A stretch of 28,514 bases of DNA, taken from assembly GCA_964430885.1 (NCBI GenBank), contig CAYSHM010000031.1, positions 1 through 28,514 of the forward strand, read 5' to 3'. Positions within the stretch are counted from its first letter, which is position 1; each line of letters opens with the position of its first letter. A model generated the notes under the pieces. The model was not told where the DNA came from, ran no database searches, and saw only the letters and a list, made by a program, of their open reading frames with translations. This document shows, piece by piece, positions 10,799 to 17,600 of the stretch. Source of the stretch: an uncultured archaeon. Lineage in GTDB: Archaea > Thermoplasmatota > Penumbrarchaeia > JASLWR01. Position numbers and translations under genes: made by a program.

Positions 10799-13543
10799 AT
10801 GAAAAGCAATGCGGTTATAAAAATTACCGGCGCGTTTATACTTATATTGATTGTGTCCTTCGGGATATTAAACGGTCTATCGGAATTAGGGGCTGATGCC
10901 CAAACAGCAGATAGTAAATCGCCATATTATGGTGCTTCATGCAATCTCAAAATAGTATCCTTCGAGGATGAGGACGGAGTTGTATATGAGAATACATTGG
11001 AAGAGAACGAAACCCCTGAGGACTGGCAGAAGGACAATGGGATCTCCACCTCTATAACCAATCTTGCAAAGTCGGTCATATTTTGGATTCAGGTCAGTTC
11101 CGAAGTGACCGATAGGACCATCAGCACGAGCCCTGGCAGTTCTGGTAATCCCTACAACATTACAATTCCTGACGATTATGTACGGAGACAGAAATATTCA
11201 TTGGATATTGAAGTTGAGGACGGTGATGATTGGAATATAACTTTCAGTGTGACAAATGATGTGCGGCTTTCAGATGATGATATCTCTCTGTATCTGACCG
11301 ATGACGGTTTTAAAAGAGCCAATGAGATGGATCGACTTTCTTTTTGGCTTGCACCCGGGGAATATGCGAATATCAAGGTGGAGGTCAAGGGCCTATCAAG
11401 TCTTTCTCCAGGTGATGAGGTAACAATAACAGTTGTACCAAGCGAAGATACCCCTGGCTGTCATACTCCTACACACATGACCGTAAAGGTAGAAAGCGAT
11501 GACGATTTTTCTGTTATTCATATACTGGGGATCATTGCAGCCTTCATTGGCCTGATATTTGCTTATATATTGTATTTAAACATTTCAAAATCGGACGAAG
11601 GTAATGATAAGGTCAAGGAAATATCAAAAAGCATTAATGAAGGCGCAATGGCCTTCCTGAACAAGGAATACAGGATCTTGGTTATATTCTCATTTGTGGT
11701 AGTGGTAGTTCTTCTCGTTGCTGCGTATATAGCGGAATCAATGACCTATTGGACCCCTGTAACATTTGTTGTAGGGGCTCTGTTCTCTGCAATAGCGGGA
11801 AACATTGGTATGCGAATTGCCACATCTTCCAACGGTAGAACTGCAACAGCTGTTGAGAAGGATCTTAAGAAAGGATTGCAGATCGCCTTTTCCAGCGGAG
11901 CGGTCATGGGCCTTTCAGTTGTTAGCTTAGGCCTATTGGGTGTGTCTGGATTTTATTTCATATTCAAAGATCCAAACATTCTTTTCGGTTTCGGTTTCGG
12001 AGCTTCATCAATAGCCCTTTTCGCTAGGGTAGGCGGGGGGATATATACCAAGAGCGCTGATGTGGGAGCCGATCTTGTTGGAAAGGTGGAGAAGGGCATC
12101 CCGGAGGATGACCCCCGGAATCCCGCGGTGATAGCTGACAATGTGGGTGACAATGTGGGAGATGTAGCAGGGATGGGAGCAGATCTATTTGAATCCTATG
12201 TTGATTCCATTATAGCCGCCATGATACTTGGAGTTGTAGGTGTTGGAACCCTGAATGCGTCCAAAGATCTCGGCGGCTTCATGGGCAAAGCAGTTCTTCT
12301 TCCATTGATAATTGCAGGACTGGGAATTATTTCTGCTATAATAGGAATATTTGTGATCAATAACAGCAAAGAGGTTAAGTCTTTACATGGCTTACTGAAC
12401 AAGGGCCTATTGACCGCAGCCTTGTTTCAGGGTATTACATCCTTAGCTGTTGTGGTTTTCTGGCTGGGAATGGATTACTTTGAGATCTGGGGTGCTATGG
12501 TTGCAGGTCTTGTAAGCGGTTTGGTTATAGGGTATATCACCGAATATTATACCTCGGATGAGTTCAAACCTACAAAAGGAATAGCTGAATCTTCAAAATC
12601 AGGTGCAGCCCCTAATATTATCGAGGGATTGTCCGTAGGTATGATCAGTACTATTGTCCCTGTAGTAATGGTATGTATTACATTGATATTCTCTTTCTGG
12701 ATGGCAGGTCTTTACGGCATAGCGATTTCTGCAGTTGGAATGCTTTCTACTTTAGGTATAACTCTAGCAACCGACTCTTACGGACCAGTAGCGGATAATG
12801 CTGCAGGAATTGCCGAGATGGCAGGAATGGGGAAAAAGGTAAGGGAGAGGGCAGAGAAACTGGATGCCGTCGGAAATACTACTGCCGCTATTGGAAAGGG
12901 TTTTGCCATAGGATCTGCAGCACTTACTGCATTGGCCCTGTTTTCCACATATACTCAAACAACTCAGCTTACTTTCGGAAGTTTATCCCTGATGGACCCA
13001 TATGTCATGGTAGGTGTTTTCATCGGTGTACTTTTGGTCTTTGTTTTTTCAGCTCTCACAATGGCAGCCGTTGGTAAAGCTGCAATGGAGATGGTGGAAG
13101 AGGTTAGACGTCAGTTCAAGGAGATTAAAGGATTAATGCAGGGCAAGCAGAAACCCGAGTACAAGAAGTGTGTAATGATTGCTACCGGCGGTGCTTTGAG
13201 ACAGATGATACTGCCCTCGGTTCTGGCAGTTGCTACACCTGTTGTAGTGGGCCTAGTCCTGGGACCTGAAGCCCTAGGCGGCCTTTTAGGCGGAGCATTG
13301 GTGGCAGGTTTCCTAATGGCAATTATGATGGCCAATTCAGGCGGAGCCTGGGATAATGCAAAGAAATATATTGAAGCCGGGAATCTAGGCGGCAAGGGTT
13401 CAGAAGCCCATAAGGCAGCCGTTGTGGGTGACACAGTAGGAGATCCGTTCAAGGATACTTCAGGTCCCTCTTTGAATATCCTGATAAAGTTGATGTCTAT
13501 TGTATCGTTGGTATTTGCCCCCCTCTTCCTGATACTGCATTAG
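10799..13543 (+). CDS. hppA: K+-dependent, probably Na+-translocating membrane pyrophosphatase with a 236-aa N-terminal extension
   Basis: [68 protein letters not shown] (Ala marks K+ dependence), [33 protein letters not shown] has Glu at the TM6 position typical of Na+-PPases. Confidence 0.95.
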
Positions 13544-13625: not shown

Positions 13626-14393
13626 ATGAGAGGTTACAAATACACTGTATCTCATAGAGATATCATGGAGGAGAACCTGCGTTTTTATACCCTAATATCA
13701 AAGAAGAAGGGAAGCAAAACCATCTCTTTGGATTTTTCCAGAAAGATGCTTGTCATCGGTAACGATGATAGATCATCAAAGAAAAATGGAATTCAAATAC
13801 CAACGCAGTCCATTAAAGATATCTATATTCACAAAGGCAAATCCCTTCCCTTGGGTGTTTTTCATATGGGGGTTTTTCTGGTTCTTCTAGTGGGCACGTC
13901 TCTCTCGCTGGTGGATGTGATATCTGTTCTCGCGTTATTGAAAAAATGGTTGTTCGTTATATTGATCCCTTGTTCAGTTATTGGTTTGACATTAGTGATA
14001 TCATATTTTCTGATAAGAAAGAAGAGCTTGGTTATTGATATCAATGGACGTGATAATATAGAACTGATTGGGGATGTGGCTCAAATGAAGAAGTTACGTT
14101 TTGACATTAATGTTCTAGAAAAGGGCCGGTTATTAGAAGAAAGAAAAATAAGATTTGAAGTGACACCCGTAATCGGCACTTCTACTAATAATGAGAAAGA
14201 GAAAATAAGGGGAATATCAGGAAGCAGAAAGTCAGCAGAAGAGGGCCCTGGTAAAGATGTATTAACTTGTCCTCACTGTGGCAGTTCGGATCTTTATTAC
14301 GAAGCAGGATTGACCACTGGCTATAAATATCACTGTGTGGATTGTGATTATATCGGCCCTTTTGTAATTAGTAAAAAACTAAAACAAATATGA
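13626..14393 (+). CDS. Hypothetical membrane protein with a 2-TM hairpin and a C-terminal zinc ribbon
   Basis: Two hydrophobic segments at about aa 75-128; C-terminal CPHC-x16-CVDC. Start could be the second Met. Confidence 0.75.
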   Translation: MRGYKYTVSHRDIMEENLRFYTLISKKKGSKTISLDFSRKMLVIGNDDRSSKKNGIQIPTQSIKDIYIHKGKSLPLGVFHMGVFLVLLVGTSLSLVDVISVLALLKKWLFVILIPCSVIGLTLVISYFLIRKKSLVIDINGRDNIELIGDVAQMKKLRFDINVLEKGRLLEERKIRFEVTPVIGTSTNNEKEKIRGISGSRKSAEEGPGKDVLTCPHCGSSDLYYEAGLTTGYKYHCVDCDYIGPFVISKKLKQI

Positions 14394-14471
14394 TTTCAAT
14401 AAAAACAAATCAGATATGACCTTTTTGTAAAGAATAATTGATGGAATGCAATAGAATTTTTCTATCAGCGT

Positions 14472-14487
14472 CAAAAGTTTTATTTAC
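14472..14487 (+). promoter_or_regulatory. BRE/TATA promoter for the intergenic sRNA
   Basis: CAAAAG followed by TTTTATTTAC, ending about 23 nt before the first hairpin at 14510. Confidence 0.6.
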
Positions 14488-14508
14488 AAAGCTTTGGAAT
14501 GAACTAAT

Positions 14509-14649
14509 GTCCTTGTCGAAGGCCTTTTTGATCTGCGGATATGATAAAAGGTGCAATACAAGGAATACACCAGGTCCAGTATAGGTCCCCTATTGACCAT
14601 GTCAAACTGACGGGTATGATATCAGGGTCAACCCCTGGACCGAACAATG
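14509..14649 (+). ncRNA. Two-hairpin archaeal box H/ACA pseudouridylation guide RNA (predicted)
   Basis: Hairpin 1: TCCTTGT/ACAAGGA stem, internal pocket, GCCTTTT/AAAAGGT stem, TGA...ATGAT K-loop, ACA at 14567-14569. Hairpin 2: GGTCCAG/CTGGACC stem, CTGA...ATGAT, ACA at 14644-14646. TATA upstream, T6 downstream. Confidence 0.8.
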
Positions 14650-14650
14650 A

Positions 14651-14656
14651 TTTTTT
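14651..14656 (+). terminator. Oligo-T terminator of the predicted sRNA
   Basis: TTTTTT 4 nt after the second ACA box. Confidence 0.5.
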
Positions 14657-14699
14657 CAAATTACGACTAATATTTCAAGTTTAATGAAACGAATAGATT

Positions 14700-17600
14700 C
14701 TATAACCCTTCCAATTCCTTTTCGATATCTTCAATAGAGGGCATCTCAATTCCATCCAGATCGATATCATCGTCTTCCTCTATCTCATCATCATCCACAG
14801 GTTCCCCTTCACTCTCCATTTCTTCTTCTGGGGCTGAGGTGTCATCCGTTCCGTCACCGAGTATGTCCGATACCATGCTGTCAAGATCTTCAATTCCAAT
14901 ATCCAGGTCTAGATTTGCTAGTTCGTCTTCATCTATATCGATATCTTCGATATCCTCTTCCTCCACTTCTTCTTCTTCTTCTTCCATCCCCATAGATGGT
15001 TCTTCATAGCCTTCATCTATCTCCTTTCCACCATCGTCTTCGGAATCGTCCGTATCGGCTGTATCGTCCTTGTCCACGACTTCTTCTTCATCAATTTCTT
15101 CCTCAACAACCGCAGCTTCCCCCACCTCGCTATCATCCTCATCTTCTTCTTCCTTCTCCTCTTTGTCAGTGTCCTCTTCAGCGTCTTCCTTATCGTCACC
15201 CTCTTCCATCTTTTCTTCTTCTTTATCCAATTCATCCTCTTCTTCCTCCTTCTTTCTGAAGAAAAGCCAGAACACGATAAAAGCAAGGATCAGCATGACG
15301 ATAATTAGAATTATCAGTGTAATCAGGACAAGATTATTGTTCTCGTTCTCTATTCTATCCGGATTGACTTCTTGATTACTCCAGAGAACATAGGGTCCTA
15401 ACACATTTTCTCCCTTTGAAACCCATATGGTTGATGTATTGCTTTCATATCCATCCATTGAAATTTCAAGAATGTAAACTCCCTCAGGTAGGTCATTAAA
15501 GGTATAGGTCTTTAGAACCTCGTCATATTCGGGATTATCAAACCTCGTCTTCTCGGTTTTGGGGTTCTTCAATACCACAATTACATCTTCCAGATAATTA
15601 TCGGCTGAATCCTTTACAGTGATTGAGAGCTTTCCGGTAATCGGGCTTTTTACCAAGCTGATATTGGTCCAATTAACGGATGCACCTTGGCTGATGTTAG
15701 ATCTGATTTCTTTAGTGTTATACCCGGCAGCCTTGAATCGGACCCTGTACTTACCAGCTTCCAGGGGGTAATAGAATGATCCTTTGTCATCGGTCTGCAC
15801 GGTCTTGAAATCCTCGAAAACAATGATTGTTGTTTCATTGAAATCTTCATACTGTGCATAGTTATCCTTCAATGTGGAGTTATTTCCAATATATACATAG
15901 GTCATATTTGTGATCATGATATTGGCATATGGAATTGGAGTTCCCGCTTCATCTGTAACATTACCGGCCAATACACCCCAAGTCGGAGGAGGCATATATT
16001 CGGCTAATATCGCATATACATAGACTGTTTCACCTATTTCCACCGTAACATCATCGGACCATTCCAGATAAGTGATCCCTTCAAAAGTGTTCCCGTATAC
16101 GGTCATCTTGTATTTGCCTGGAGGCACATTTTCAAAATATTCCTTTCCATTGCTGCCAGTATAACCAGTGGGTAAATTTCCCACATCGATGAAGAATCCT
16201 TTTAGAGGATCATCAGTAGCATTCTTGACCTGGAAAACAATCCGTCCTGTTGTTATAGGTTTCCCCATGGTGGTGAACTCAAAGGAAATATTGGAAATCC
16301 TGTTGCCTGCCAGGTCAGTGAGATCATAATCTATAATTACCTGATACTCCTCGTTATACTCCAGACCATTTATGAAAAGCAGATAGAGAATTGACCTTCT
16401 CTGGCTTATATTGTTTTCAATCAGGAAGTCAAAGGAAATGCGGTTCTCGTTTGAATCGATGATGGATATTCCTGATTCAATGGTACCGTTGTTGATGATC
16501 TCGGAGAATATTACGGTGTAGTTGATGTCTATATCCATATCTAGTTCACGGTCATCGGGATAGGTTTCTAATATTGTGGGCTTGATATTATCCAAAACTA
16601 TAAGCGGGGCAAATTGGCCGGTTGGATTCGGATCTGAAATATTTATTCCAACCATTCCATTCCCCCGGTCCAGTAGAGTTTCAGTTATTTGACCCCAATA
16701 ATTGTTGTTTATGCCTCTGAAATAAATAACAAGATCGTCGTCATACGTTCCAGGCGGGAAGAAGCCGGGATCAAATTCAAACCAAACTTCTGTCCAAATG
16801 GCCCTGCCTTCACCTGTTAAATTCAACTGCAGCATTATTTCAATAAAGACCATCCCGTCTGATATGTTTTCCCAAGCTCTGGTATTCTCAGTATCAACAT
16901 CCAGTGTGAATTGACCTGAACCTCCAAACAGGCTCCTGATATGAACTGGTCCATGATCAATTACCTGAATTGTGGGCAGGTATACGTTCAAATCGAAATA
17001 TGCGGATGTTGTGGTATAGGGATCCGATACATTGAGATAGATCCGGTGATTACCAATTGAAAGCTGTGCGGTGTCCAGCATAATGACATTCGTGTTCATA
17101 TCCAATGTTTGATCGAGCTGGATGGGGCCTGAAAGATTTGAAACGAACTCGAACTCAAGTAACTGGTAACTTTCTTCGGGATCTATAAAGTCAACATCAA
17201 TGTATATTTCATCCTGCCAAATTACAAATGATGGGTAGTTGTTGATTGATACCGCTGGGGGATGGTTGTCCAATTCCATGTAGAAATCCACTCTTCGGTT
17301 TTCATTGGCTACAAGTATGATATTTTTATAAGTAGATTTGAATCGCGCCTTGGAAACTGATATGTTCACCCTCCCACCGGATATCACTGGGAAATTGAAG
17401 AACCCGCCGGGATTGGTTTGAGTATTGACCTGAGCGCCGCTATTGAATCTTATATCAAGAGATGCATTTGATATTGCAGTCCCGTCCAAATCTGAGTAAA
17501 CATAACCGAAAACGGCAGGAAGTGCATCCAGGTTTAATCCATACACGGTCATGGTTATATTGTTGCTTGACATGTCCATATCCATATATAGGGGCACATC

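What the first reader, a model, noticed from the sequence alone, without database searches (positions are those of the whole stretch)
14510..14569. H/ACA hairpin 1: predicted guide for a 23S rRNA uridine equivalent to E. coli 2496
Seen: a 7-bp lower stem (14510-14516/14558-14564), pocket strands CGAAG (14517-14521) and GCAAT (14553-14557), a 7-bp upper stem, a TGA/ATGAT K-loop, and ACA exactly 14 nt from the top of the pocket. The pocket reads a substrate 5'-(A)UUGC-UN-CUUCG-3'. Known (from memory): the euryarchaeal peptidyl-transferase loop reads about UUGC-UA-CYUCGAUGUCGG, and the equivalent yeast site is Psi2865, guided by snR46. Inference: an unannotated archaeal guide for a eukaryote-like PTC pseudouridine.
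Basis: partly seen in the sequence, partly recalled or inferred. Interest (0 to 1): 0.8.

Follow-up and report, generated by a model that had tools for sequence, protein, structure and literature searches.

The report
Archaeal pseudouridine guide RNA, known family
The hairpin is a real guide RNA module that most likely tells an archaeal enzyme to convert one uridine beside the ribosome's catalytic centre into pseudouridine, but it is the counterpart of a guide already characterised in Pyrococcus, so it is a new member of a known family.

Summary
The organism's 23S rRNA contains UUGC-UA-CUUCG. The target is U2530, which aligns with E. coli C2496.

The hairpin is the first of two H/ACA hairpins in one small RNA gene, about 14510-14650 on the + strand. 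The gene has a TATA box at -31 to -24 and a T6 run after the second ACA. Rfam's HgcG/Pab40 model matches it at E=1.4e-7 but below the gathering score.

Pab40 motif 1 was shown experimentally to make Psi2588 in Pyrococcus abyssi (PMC2377435). I mapped that site onto U2530.

Homologues occur in 34 of 41 related Thermoplasmatota genomes. The stems covary. The guide letters track three different rRNA variants.

This scan has already reported Pab40-like RNAs, including the same target site, in Asgard genomes.

No RNA data were available. Pseudouridine formation is inferred.

In passing: this copy lacks the family's third hairpin, and its 23S has C where that hairpin's target uridine (E. coli 1915) lies in relatives.

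The parts
14479..14486 (+). TATA-like promoter box TTTATTTA, 31 to 24 nt upstream of the first base of hairpin 1
   Evidence: across 44 distinct upstream sequences of homologues, the A+T fraction is 0.84-1.00 at -29 to -23 and 0.36-0.70 around it. The best TTTAWATA-like octamer starts at -33 to -27 in 34 of 44. The consensus is recalled, not from a call. In P. abyssi the RNA-seq 5' end of Pab40 (382,389; PMC4652768 section 5) is the first base of motif 1, which is where my parse of G046 starts.
14510..14516 (+). Hairpin 1, lower stem, 5' strand (TCCTTGT)
   Evidence: It pairs with 14558-14564. 7 of the 8 lower-stem pairs in the family alignment change on both sides.
14517..14521 (+). Hairpin 1, 5' guide strand CGAAG, which pairs with 23S C2532-G2536 (CUUCG)
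   Evidence: 25 of 29 Thermoplasmatota copies end in CGAAG and 27 of 29 in GAAG. The guide tracks rRNA variants: CGGAG with CUCCG in G039, and GCGAGG with CCUCGC in Thermococci.
14522..14552 (+). Hairpin 1, 10-layer 'GA stem' with K-loop. It has 7 pairs (14522-14528 with 14546-14552), U14529/U14545, and tandem G.A/A.G (14530-31 with 14543-44). This is the predicted L7Ae site.
   Evidence: aligned column by column with the HgcG consensus. All 8 pairs of this helix change on both sides in the family. The GA...GA letters are invariant in alignment A1.
14553..14557 (+). Hairpin 1, 3' guide strand GCAAT. GCAA pairs with 23S U2526-C2529 (UUGC). U14557 faces C2525 and is unpaired.
   Evidence: GCAA is present in 27 of 29 Thermoplasmatota copies, and GCGA in 16 of 16 Thermococci copies, where it gives a G.U wobble on the same UUGC.
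14558..14564 (+). Hairpin 1, lower stem, 3' strand (ACAAGGA)
14567..14569 (+). ACA box of hairpin 1, 14 nt from the first base of the 3' guide
   Evidence: The published range for active archaeal motifs is 14 or 15 nt (PMC2377435 abstract and section 22; PMC4652768 section 10).
14570..14646 (+). Hairpin 2 of the same RNA. The lower stem is 14573-14579 with 14635-14641. The long 5' strand holds a small conserved hairpin (AUAGG-UCC-CCUAU, 14581-14593). The 3' guide is AACCC (14630-14634) and the ACA box is 14644-14646, again 14 nt from the guide. The predicted target is 23S U2620 (E. coli U2586).
   Evidence: aligned to Pab40 motif 2. GGGUU-U occurs at LSU 2615-2620, and U2620 aligns with E. coli 2586. 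The same context surrounds P. abyssi 2678, the site Muller et al. predict for motif 2 of Pf7 and Afu4. The fold of the upper part and the 5' pairing are not settled. A 16S site (GGGUU-U1366) also fits the 3' guide.
14651..14656 (+). T6 run 5 nt after the second ACA, the likely transcription stop
   Evidence: Several homologues end in T runs after their last ACA. That oligo-T acts as an archaeal terminator is established knowledge and was not tested here.

Best explanation
Window 14510-14569 (+) is the first of two box H/ACA hairpins of one small non-coding RNA. The RNA spans about 14510-14650 and has its own TATA promoter and a T-run stop. It lies between the 3' ends of two convergent protein genes. 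The organism is a marine Thermoplasmatota archaeon.

The RNA is a diverged two-hairpin homologue of Pab40/Pf7 (Rfam HgcG, RF00064).

Inferred mechanism, by analogy with solved and reconstituted archaeal H/ACA RNPs:
- L7Ae binds the K-loop.
- Cbf5-Nop10(-Gar1) binds the ACA box, the lower stem and the pocket.
- 23S rRNA pairs with the pocket: UUGC with GCAA and CUUCG with CGAAG.
- U2530-A2531 is left unpaired at the top of the pocket, 14 nt from ACA.
- Cbf5 isomerises U2530 to pseudouridine.

U2530 is the equivalent of E. coli C2496, P. abyssi Psi2588 and yeast Psi2865.

Shown here: the anatomy, the complementarity, the homology, the covariation of stems and of guide with target, the promoter signal, and the presence of the protein genes. 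Inferred: transcription, RNP assembly and the modification itself.
For: 1. Anatomy. It fits the productive '10/5/9' fold, with ACA at 14 nt.

2. Target. Only one rRNA site fits, U2530 = E. coli 2496. No tRNA site fits (0 of 38). It is the only one of 25 genome-wide hairpins of this architecture with an rRNA target, against 0 of 11 controls.

3. Homology. HgcG/Pab40 matches at E=1.4e-7 with motifs 1 and 2 aligned. HgcG matches are found in 34 of 41 related genomes. In the Thermococci class, 25 of 41 genomes match and 20 of 41 are above Rfam's cut-off. My hairpin-1 model finds this locus alone in the own genome (E=3.6e-7).

4. Same site as the validated guide. Pab40 motif 1 gives Psi2588: CMCT positive, in vitro '+++' (PMC2377435 Table 1). 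In G046's 23S, only one of 160 offsets puts U at all 12 published Psi positions. Under that offset, 2588 is the U of UUGC-UA-CCUCG, which aligns with U2530.

5. Stem covariation. 88% of cells are paired, 15 of 16 pairs change on both sides, and 0 of 500 shuffles reach the observed values. Slid controls give 40-54% paired. The alignment was fitted to the model, so it leans towards the structure.

6. Guide-target covariation:
- rRNA CUUCG with guide CGAAG (UGAAG or AGAAG in 2 of them), in 15 relatives with both recovered, plus the own genome.
- rRNA CUCCG with guide CGGAG, in G039.
- rRNA CCUCGCU with guide AGCGAGG or GCGAGG, in Thermococci: 30 of 30 rRNAs and 16 of 16 guides.

7. Promoter. A TATA-like A+T peak lies at -29 to -23 in 44 homologues.

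8. Proteins in the own genome:
- Cbf5, 409 bits.
- Nop10, 68.5 bits.
- L7Ae family, 105 bits.
- A 76-aa ORF that matches seven NCBIfam Gar1 models, best E=6.4e-11, all below their cut-offs.

9. Duplex strength. The important 5' duplex (3' guide) is four Watson-Crick pairs. By the same calculation it is slightly more stable than the validated Thermococci one (-1.9 against -1.5 kcal/mol).
Against: - There is no evidence of transcription.
- Only 9 guide-target pairs form. The 3' duplex is much weaker than in Thermococci (-3.7 against -11.1 kcal/mol). Muller et al. report that this side matters less.
- I could not run RNAsnoop, so the published -6.0 and -27 kcal/mol cut-offs were not applied.
- The Rfam score is below the gathering threshold (32.8 against 77). 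The genome search with RF00064 did not recover the locus in the own genome, apparently because of its first-look filter.
- Gar1 is only weakly detected. Pfam PF04410 gives E=0.075 on the ORF, and nothing at E<=0.001 in the genome.
- Among the Thermoplasmatota sampled the target sequence is invariant apart from G039. There, pocket conservation alone cannot separate function from slow drift. The argument rests on variable stems around an invariant pocket, plus G039 and the comparison with Thermococci.
- One relative (G040) has a different hairpin-1 pocket that does not fit this site, although its 23S has the same sequence.
Confidence: 0.85

Rival explanations
1. The RNA is a real H/ACA-type RNP component, but in this organism hairpin 1 is not a productive pseudouridylation guide. 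With only 4 + 5 pairs it may bind the pre-23S transiently as a folding chaperone, or it may be a decaying module on the way to loss, as hairpin 3 has been lost.
For: The 3' duplex is short and weak (-3.7 kcal/mol). U14557 is mismatched. This same RNA has lost one hairpin. Non-modifying roles for archaeal sRNPs are discussed as a possibility in PMC3608112 section 13.
Against: The geometry is the productive 10/5/9 fold. The pairs at n-1 and n+2 are Watson-Crick, as the published rules require. The 5' duplex is at least as strong as in the validated Pab40.1-L2588 pair. Muller et al. found efficient modification with weak 5'-guide pairing. The pocket letters are kept in 27 of 29 copies while the stems change.
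Confidence: 0.08
2. Hairpin 1 guides a different uridine, either in another RNA (mRNA, another sRNA, pre-rRNA spacer) or through non-canonical pairing. On this view the 23S match is a coincidence inherited from the family.
For: Single H/ACA motifs can guide two or three sites (PMC2377435 abstract). I scanned only mature 16S, 23S and 38 tRNAs, not spacers or mRNAs.
Against: U2530 is the only rRNA site with 7 or more pairs. The guide follows the rRNA at two different positions in two lineages, which a coincidental match would not do.
Confidence: 0.04
3. It is a chance hairpin, or a structured but untranscribed intergenic relic with no RNA product.
For: No RNA data exist for this organism in the runs served. 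The fold z-score is modest (-2.23).
Against: Homologues with compensatory stem changes exist in two phyla. A TATA box sits at a fixed distance. The same locus is unique in the genome for the model. The sequence is identical in contigs of 4 DNA runs of one study, two of which may be the source.
Confidence: 0.02

Closest known systems
Pab40 / Pf7 / Pho40 (Rfam HgcG, RF00064), motif 1, which guides Psi2588 of Pyrococcus abyssi 23S rRNA (Muller et al. 2008, PMC2377435)
   Same: - The position in the RNA is the same: first hairpin, starting at the transcript's 5' end.
- The layer counts are the same: a closing G.U, 7 further layers and tandem G.A in the upper stem, a 5-nt 3' guide, and ACA at 14 nt.
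- The 23S uridine is the same.
- The second hairpin is also homologous, including the conserved GGUCCC element in its 5' strand.
   Different: - The guide letters differ in step with the rRNA: CGAAG/GCAA here, GCGAGG/GCGA there.
- The 5' guide is 5 nt, against 6-8 nt.
- The lower stem has 7 pairs, against 8.
- The stems are A+U-rich (40% G+C against 66-78%).
- The RNA has two hairpins, not three.
- The score is 32.8 bits, below Rfam's gathering score of 77.
- The phylum is different (Thermoplasmatota).
- There are no experimental data.
Yeast snR46, the H/ACA snoRNA for 25S Psi2865 (table in Sloan et al. 2016, PMC5699541)
   Same: It is an RNA-guided pseudouridylation of the homologous large-subunit uridine by a Cbf5-family enzyme. 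P. abyssi 2549, 2588 and 2603 match yeast 2826, 2865 and 2880 with one constant offset of 277.
   Different: Eukaryotic snoRNAs have the hairpin-H box-hairpin-ACA layout without a K-turn or K-loop (established knowledge, not tested here). I did not compare sequences with snR46, so homology of the guides themselves is not shown.
Pab40-like three-hairpin H/ACA RNAs of Asgard archaea, reported earlier in this scan (for example e1-5701679 and e1-5593541). These are unchecked AI notes.
   Same: They belong to the same family. In e1-5701679 hairpin 1 is read the same way, as a guide for LSU U2496, the yeast Psi2865 site.
   Different: They come from another phylum and are mostly three-hairpin. Here there are two hairpins, and the third one's target uridine is absent.
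Hvo1 / sR-h45 motif 1 of haloarchaea, which targets H. marismortui L2621 (named in PMC4652768 section 14)
   Same: It is relevant to hairpin 2 only. Muller et al. equate P. abyssi position 2678 with the Psi found in H. marismortui and H. halobium. The predicted hairpin-2 target here (U2620, preceded by GGGUU) has the same sequence context as P. abyssi 2678.
   Different: I made no sequence comparison with the haloarchaeal guide. The hairpin-2 fold here is unresolved.

Membership tests
Archaeal box H/ACA guide sRNA (class) | Hairpin of lower stem, internal loop (pseudouridylation pocket) and upper stem, followed by an ANA/ACA box | tested here: met
   Both stems are 7 pairs, the pocket is 5 + 5 nt, and ACA is at 14567-14569.
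Archaeal box H/ACA guide sRNA (class) | K-turn or K-loop closing the upper stem, giving a 10-layer 'GA stem' (14 of 15 productive P. abyssi folds) | tested here: met
   There are 7 pairs, a U/U layer and tandem G.A/A.G, which makes 10 layers. GA...GA is invariant in A1. Binding of L7Ae was not tested.
Archaeal box H/ACA guide sRNA (class) | 14 or 15 nt between the upper stem's closing pair and the ACA box | tested here: met
   14 nt.
Archaeal box H/ACA guide sRNA (class) | Both pocket strands pair with a substrate around an unpaired UN, with no mismatch or wobble at n-1 and n+2 and at most one wobble in the 5' duplex | tested here: met
   UUGC pairs with GCAA and CUUCG with CGAAG, all Watson-Crick, and the unpaired UN is U2530-A2531.
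Archaeal box H/ACA guide sRNA (class) | Duplex energies below the published cut-offs (RNAsnoop: 5' duplex -6.0, whole complex -27 kcal/mol) | not testable with these tools
   RNAsnoop was not run. With RNAduplex-type energies the 5' duplex is slightly better than the validated Thermococci one (-1.9 against -1.5), and the 3' duplex is weaker (-3.7 against -11.1).
Archaeal box H/ACA guide sRNA (class) | Genes for Cbf5, Nop10, L7Ae and Gar1 in the genome | tested here: inconclusive
   Cbf5, Nop10 and L7Ae are above their curated cut-offs. Gar1 is seen only as a 76-aa ORF that hits seven NCBIfam Gar1 models below their cut-offs (best E=6.4e-11), and Pfam gives E=0.075. The genome is 91.6% complete.
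Archaeal box H/ACA guide sRNA (class) | A stable small RNA is made, and the target uridine is pseudouridine | not testable with these tools
   No RNA run was listed. Only DNA contigs could be laid.
HgcG / Pab40 family (Rfam RF00064) | Match to the family covariance model at or above Rfam's gathering score (77 bits) | tested here: not met
   The score is 32.8 bits with E=1.4e-7, and there is no hit at gathering. None of the 34 matching relatives reaches 77 either (best 76.9). In my reading, the cut-off appears to reflect the Thermococci genomes that reach it (20 of 41). I therefore call this a diverged homologue, not an Rfam-defined member.
HgcG / Pab40 family (Rfam RF00064) | Motif 1 directed at the uridine equivalent to P. 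abyssi 23S 2588 | tested here: met
HgcG / Pab40 family (Rfam RF00064) | Three H/ACA motifs in one transcript, the third directed at the helix-69 uridine (P. abyssi 2016) | tested here: not met
   No third hairpin follows 14646. 29 of 30 relatives' loci have one. The own 23S has C at the corresponding position.
HgcG / Pab40 family (Rfam RF00064) | Motif 2 with a long 5' strand that holds an extra small stem-loop | tested here: met
   The window's AUAGG-UCC-CCUAU aligns with the GAGGUCCCCUC element of the model. The feature is described for Pab40 motif 2 in PMC2377435 section 20.

The most novel reading that the evidence does not exclude
This RNA records the joint loss of a guide and its target. 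The family's third hairpin directs pseudouridylation of the helix-69 loop uridine (E. coli 1915), one of the most widely conserved rRNA pseudouridines. That hairpin was dropped in the lineage of this genome, and the target uridine itself is a C there. The same C occurs in at least two other families of the phylum. In one of them the HgcG-like RNAs also lack the canonical third hairpin. If this holds, these marine archaea are natural 'knock-outs' of the helix-69 Psi1915 site. They would also show that guide modules are shed once their substrate base is gone, while hairpins 1 and 2 are kept.
Probability: 0.5. Interest if true: 0.5.

Novelty: new member of a known kind. Interest (0 to 1): 0.33.

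Why it matters
- It adds a phylum, Thermoplasmatota, to the range of the Pab40/HgcG guide family. The RNA is in 34 of 41 sampled relatives, and all of them lie below Rfam's cut-off. Standard annotation therefore misses it throughout the group.
- The guide for the uridine next to the peptidyl-transferase centre has been kept and re-tuned to three rRNA sequence variants. This supports the view of Muller et al. 2008 that this pseudouridine is ancient and shared with eukaryotes.
- For annotation, the hairpin-1 model built here, or a widened Rfam seed, would recover these genes.
- Hairpin 1 itself is not surprising to a specialist, because its Pyrococcus counterpart and target are published.
- The side observation on the lost third hairpin and the U-to-C change in helix 69 is the part that could open a new question.

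Tried and rejected
- Expression. The look-up of sequencing runs listed no RNA holder. Read laying could only lay DNA contigs of 4 runs of one study, two of them possible sources of this DNA. They were identical to the window, with no variants. This says nothing about transcription.
- Rfam at gathering thresholds found nothing in the window.
- The genome search with RF00064 on the own genome missed the locus twice. The hit it did list (C44, E=1.82) is noise. The lack of a hairpin-3 match there is therefore uninformative.
- I searched the own genome by script for a relocated third hairpin (GGTCA or GGTTA ... GTTA ... ANA with stems). Only one poor candidate turned up, on C34.
- My first two hairpin parsers failed on many homologues with bulges or loop insertions. 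I replaced them with a covariance model.
- I first looked for the Thermococci target with the motif CGATGTCG and found only unrelated genes. Their rRNA reads CGCTGTCG, which an alignment then showed.
- The 23S position computed from the Rfam-delimited start in G046 was 2614, not 2588. An offset test resolved this.
- Gar1 was not found by Pfam at E<=0.001. A weak hit led to the 76-aa candidate.
- The upstream 255-aa ORF (13626-14393) has only weak zinc-ribbon hits and no evident link to the RNA.
- Literature. Two searches for H/ACA RNAs in Thermoplasma or Thermoplasmatota returned nothing on the subject, judging by titles and abstract starts, and by passages in one review. One search found 4 papers. 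One search found 7 papers, of which 5 were listed.
- Supplementary figures of PMC2377435 and PMC4652768, which draw the Pab40.1-L2588 pairing, were not consulted.

Full report
THE OBSERVATION

Reading 14300-14800 confirms every element at the stated coordinates:
- Lower stem: TCCTTGT paired with ACAAGGA (14510-16 with 14558-64).
- Pocket strands: CGAAG (14517-21) and GCAAT (14553-57).
- Upper stem: GCCTTTT paired with AAAAGGT (14522-28 with 14546-52), closed by a G.U pair.
- Loop: TGATCTGCGGATATGAT.
- ACA box: 14567-69, 14 nt after the first base of the 3' pocket strand.

The thermodynamic fold of 14505-14652 on the + strand gives exactly these two stems with the pocket open (z -2.23). The complement folds less distinctively (z -1.16).

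A second hairpin with its own ACA (14644-46) follows directly. A T6 run (14651-56) comes after it.

The region lies between the stop of a + strand ORF (14393) and the stop of a 2499-aa - strand ORF (14700). The small ORFs that overlap it are 47-51 aa.

THE TARGET

The window is contig C31 of a 3.13-Mb, 44-contig genome. Its single 23S (C2:148981-151901, -) and 16S were located with Rfam models.

The 23S contains UUGCUACUUCG once. Scanning 16S and 23S for any U flanked by 7 or more contiguous guide pairs gives only U2530, with 4 + 5 pairs. The base 5' of UUGC is C, so U14557 is unpaired.

A MAFFT alignment with E. coli K-12 rrlH puts U2530 opposite C2496. None of 38 tRNAs has a site with 7 or more pairs.

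IS IT MORE THAN CHANCE?

A strict architecture scan of the whole genome on both strands required:
- tandem GA...GA on a stem with 7 or more of 8 pairs;
- ANA at 14 or 15 nt;
- a lower stem of 6 or more pairs;
- guides of 5-8 nt (5') and 5-6 nt (3').

It finds 25 hairpins, against 11 in the reversed sequence. Only the window's hairpin has an rRNA target of 9 or more pairs, and none of the 11 controls does. This scan misses irregular motifs such as hairpin 2, so it is a specificity control and not a census.

WHAT IT IS

At E-value thresholds, Rfam's HgcG (Pab40) model matches 14456-14677 (+) with 32.8 bits and E=1.4e-7. The gathering score is 77, so the default scan is blank.

The alignment places hairpin 1 on Pab40 motif 1 layer by layer. 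It places hairpin 2 on motif 2, including the small GGUCCC stem-loop in the 5' strand. It deletes motif 3.

What I read of the literature:
- Muller et al. 2008 (PMC2377435; passages read) identified Pab40 in P. abyssi. They detected it by Northern blot. They showed that motif 1 guides Psi2588 of 23S (CMCT positive, in vitro 80-100%). [quoted passage not shown]
- Toffano-Nioche et al. 2015 (PMC4652768; outline and sections 10, 12, 13, 14 read) classify productive folds as 10/5/9 or 10/6/9. The window's hairpin is 10/5/9, subfamily 55. Its pairs at n-1 and n+2 are Watson-Crick.

MAPPING 2588 ONTO U2530

Through a Methanofastidiosia MAG found with the neighbouring pyrophosphatase I reached its class. 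There, 20 of 41 genomes have HgcG hits above Rfam's cut-off.

One of them, G046, has its hit at the coordinates that PMC4652768 prints for Pab40. In G046's 23S, only one of 160 offsets tested (+26 from the Rfam-delimited start) puts U at all 12 published Psi positions. Under that offset, 2588 is the U of UUGC-UA-CCUCG. An alignment of 30 Thermococci-class 23S segments with the own sequence puts that U opposite U2530.

Yeast Psi2826, Psi2865 and Psi2880 (snR34, snR46, snR34; table in PMC5699541) equal P. abyssi 2549, 2588 and 2603 plus 277.

CONSERVATION AND COVARIATION

HgcG matches at E<=0.01 occur in 34 of 41 genomes of the own family, class and phylum sample, all below 77 bits.

I built a model of hairpin 1 from 20 copies. 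It recovered 45 copies among 48 sources: the window, 28 of 30 Thermoplasmatota loci and 16 of 17 Thermococci-class loci. In the own genome it finds only this locus.

On that alignment:
- 88% of cells are paired.
- 15 of 16 pairs change on both sides.
- No shuffle of 500 reaches the observed values.
- Sliding the partners drops pairing to 40-54%.
The alignment is fitted to the model, which favours the structure.

The pocket, by contrast, is nearly fixed. 25 of 29 Thermoplasmatota copies end the 5' guide in CGAAG, and 27 of 29 have GCAA in the 3' guide.

The guide follows the rRNA where the rRNA differs:
- 20 Thermoplasmatota 23S sequences, plus 10 from a further family, read UUGC-UA-CUUCG. Their guides read CGAAG.
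- G039 reads CUCCG, and its guide reads CGGAG.
- All 30 Thermococci-class rRNAs read CCUCGCU, and all 16 guides read GCGAGG.

Both RNAs were recovered in 17 relatives. In 16 of them the pocket fits. G040 has a different pocket.

TRANSCRIPTION SIGNALS AND PROTEINS

Upstream of hairpin 1, 44 distinct homologues show an A+T peak of 0.84-1.00 at -29 to -23. The window has TTTATTTA at 14479-86. For Pab40 the RNA-seq 5' end is the first base of motif 1, matching my parse.

The genome encodes Cbf5, Nop10 and an L7Ae-family protein above curated cut-offs. It also encodes a 76-aa ORF that resembles Gar1 only weakly.

LIMITS

No RNA run holds the sequence, so transcription and the modification are inferred.

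The 3' duplex is weak (-3.7 kcal/mol against -11.1 in Thermococci). The 5' duplex, which Muller et al. find more important, is slightly stronger than the validated one. RNAsnoop cut-offs were not applied.

HAIRPIN 2 (OUTSIDE THE FINDING)

Its 3' guide AACCC, again 14 nt from ACA, complements GGGUU before U2620, which aligns with E. coli U2586. The same context surrounds P. abyssi 2678, the site Muller et al. predict for motif 2 of Pf7 and Afu4. Its upper fold and 5' pairing are unresolved. A 16S site also fits the 3' guide.

THE MISSING THIRD HAIRPIN (IN PASSING)

29 of 30 relatives' loci carry a third hairpin with guides GGGUYA and GUUR (parses). These guides fit UAAC-UA-UGACCC in helix 69. 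The target is the U at E. coli 1915, which is P. abyssi 2016. The window's RNA has none.

The own 23S reads GUAAC-C-AUGACC at that place. All 19 sequences from 17 relatives, and G046, have U.

The C variant is in 18 of 401 sampled genomes of the phylum, in two other families. How many of the 401 have this rRNA segment assembled is unknown.

In one of those families:
- 8 of 40 genomes have the segment. All 8 have C, and one also has a U copy on a contig end.
- 6 of 40 have HgcG-like hits of 163-233 nt. These carry hairpin-1 pockets CGAAG/GCAA and no canonical third hairpin, though a different long 3' domain follows.
- None of those 6 genomes has the rRNA segment, so the link is at family level only.

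VERDICT

The thing is a diverged, two-hairpin member of the Pab40/HgcG guide family in a new phylum. Its first hairpin is aimed at the already known conserved site.

The scan has reported the same family, and the same site, in Asgard genomes before. Earlier notes on this genome call it a marine Thermoplasmatota archaeon. That agrees with the nearest pyrophosphatase relatives.

Noticed in passing
window 14647-14700; own 23S at G000:C2 (L130), LSU position 1955: The RNA lacks the family's third hairpin. That hairpin has guides GGGUYA and GUUR, targets the helix-69 U at E. coli 1915, and is present in 29 of 30 relatives' loci. The own 23S has C at that very position, where 17 relatives and a Thermococci genome have U. 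The C variant is in 18 of 401 sampled genomes of the phylum. In one of the other families that carry it, the HgcG-like RNAs also lack the canonical third hairpin.
   Followed up: partly
window 14570-14646: Hairpin 2 has 3' guide AACCC, 14 nt from its ACA. This fits GGGUU-U2620 of 23S (E. coli U2586, P. abyssi 2678). The 5' strand holds a small hairpin around GGUCCC that is conserved from Thermoplasmatota to Thermococci. Its GGUC could pair with the GACC that follows the target. A 16S site (U1366) also fits the 3' guide.
   Followed up: partly
L021:1646-1750 (-) and L020 (G001 and G003, same family as the window's genome): In these two relatives the apical loop of hairpin 1 carries an insertion of about 50-60 nt between the two GA elements. 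The pocket (AGAAG / GCAA) is kept.
   Followed up: no
L005 (G008) and L006:259-313 (G040): Hairpin 1 of these two relatives has quite different pocket letters (CTAGATG / TGGAA and TGGCAAAT / CGACGACC). The first module seems to have been re-aimed at other sites. G040's 23S still has the UUGC-UA-CUUCG sequence.
   Followed up: no
upstream of hairpin 1 in 44 homologues; window about 14500: Besides the TATA peak there is a sharp A/T preference at position -10 (0.95) and at -33 and -34 (0.82, 0.70). These may be a promoter-proximal element and BRE.
   Followed up: no
L161-L165 (family f21), downstream of hairpin 2: The HgcG-like RNAs of this family continue with a long (about 100 nt) different 3' domain. 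It starts with CTGTCGCG and ends in GTTGGGTGACAGCGRCAA. Its fold and any target are unknown.
   Followed up: no
G000:C2:242363-242431 (+) and G000:C5:131973-132033 (+): These are two further strict H/ACA-type hairpins in the own genome. They have 8 of 8 upper-stem pairs, the same 3' guide AGCAT and ANA at 15 nt. No rRNA target of 9 or more pairs was found under my rules.
   Followed up: no
G000:C11, L150:1435-1665 (-): This 76-aa ORF matches seven NCBIfam Gar1 models (best E=6.4e-11, 42.4 bits), but all below their cut-offs, and Pfam Gar1 only at E=0.075. It is probably a divergent Gar1 that annotation by cut-offs would miss.
   Followed up: partly
window 10799-13543 (+): The membrane pyrophosphatase has an N-terminal extension. 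Relatives found by tblastn start matching only at residues 92-262 of 914.
   Followed up: no
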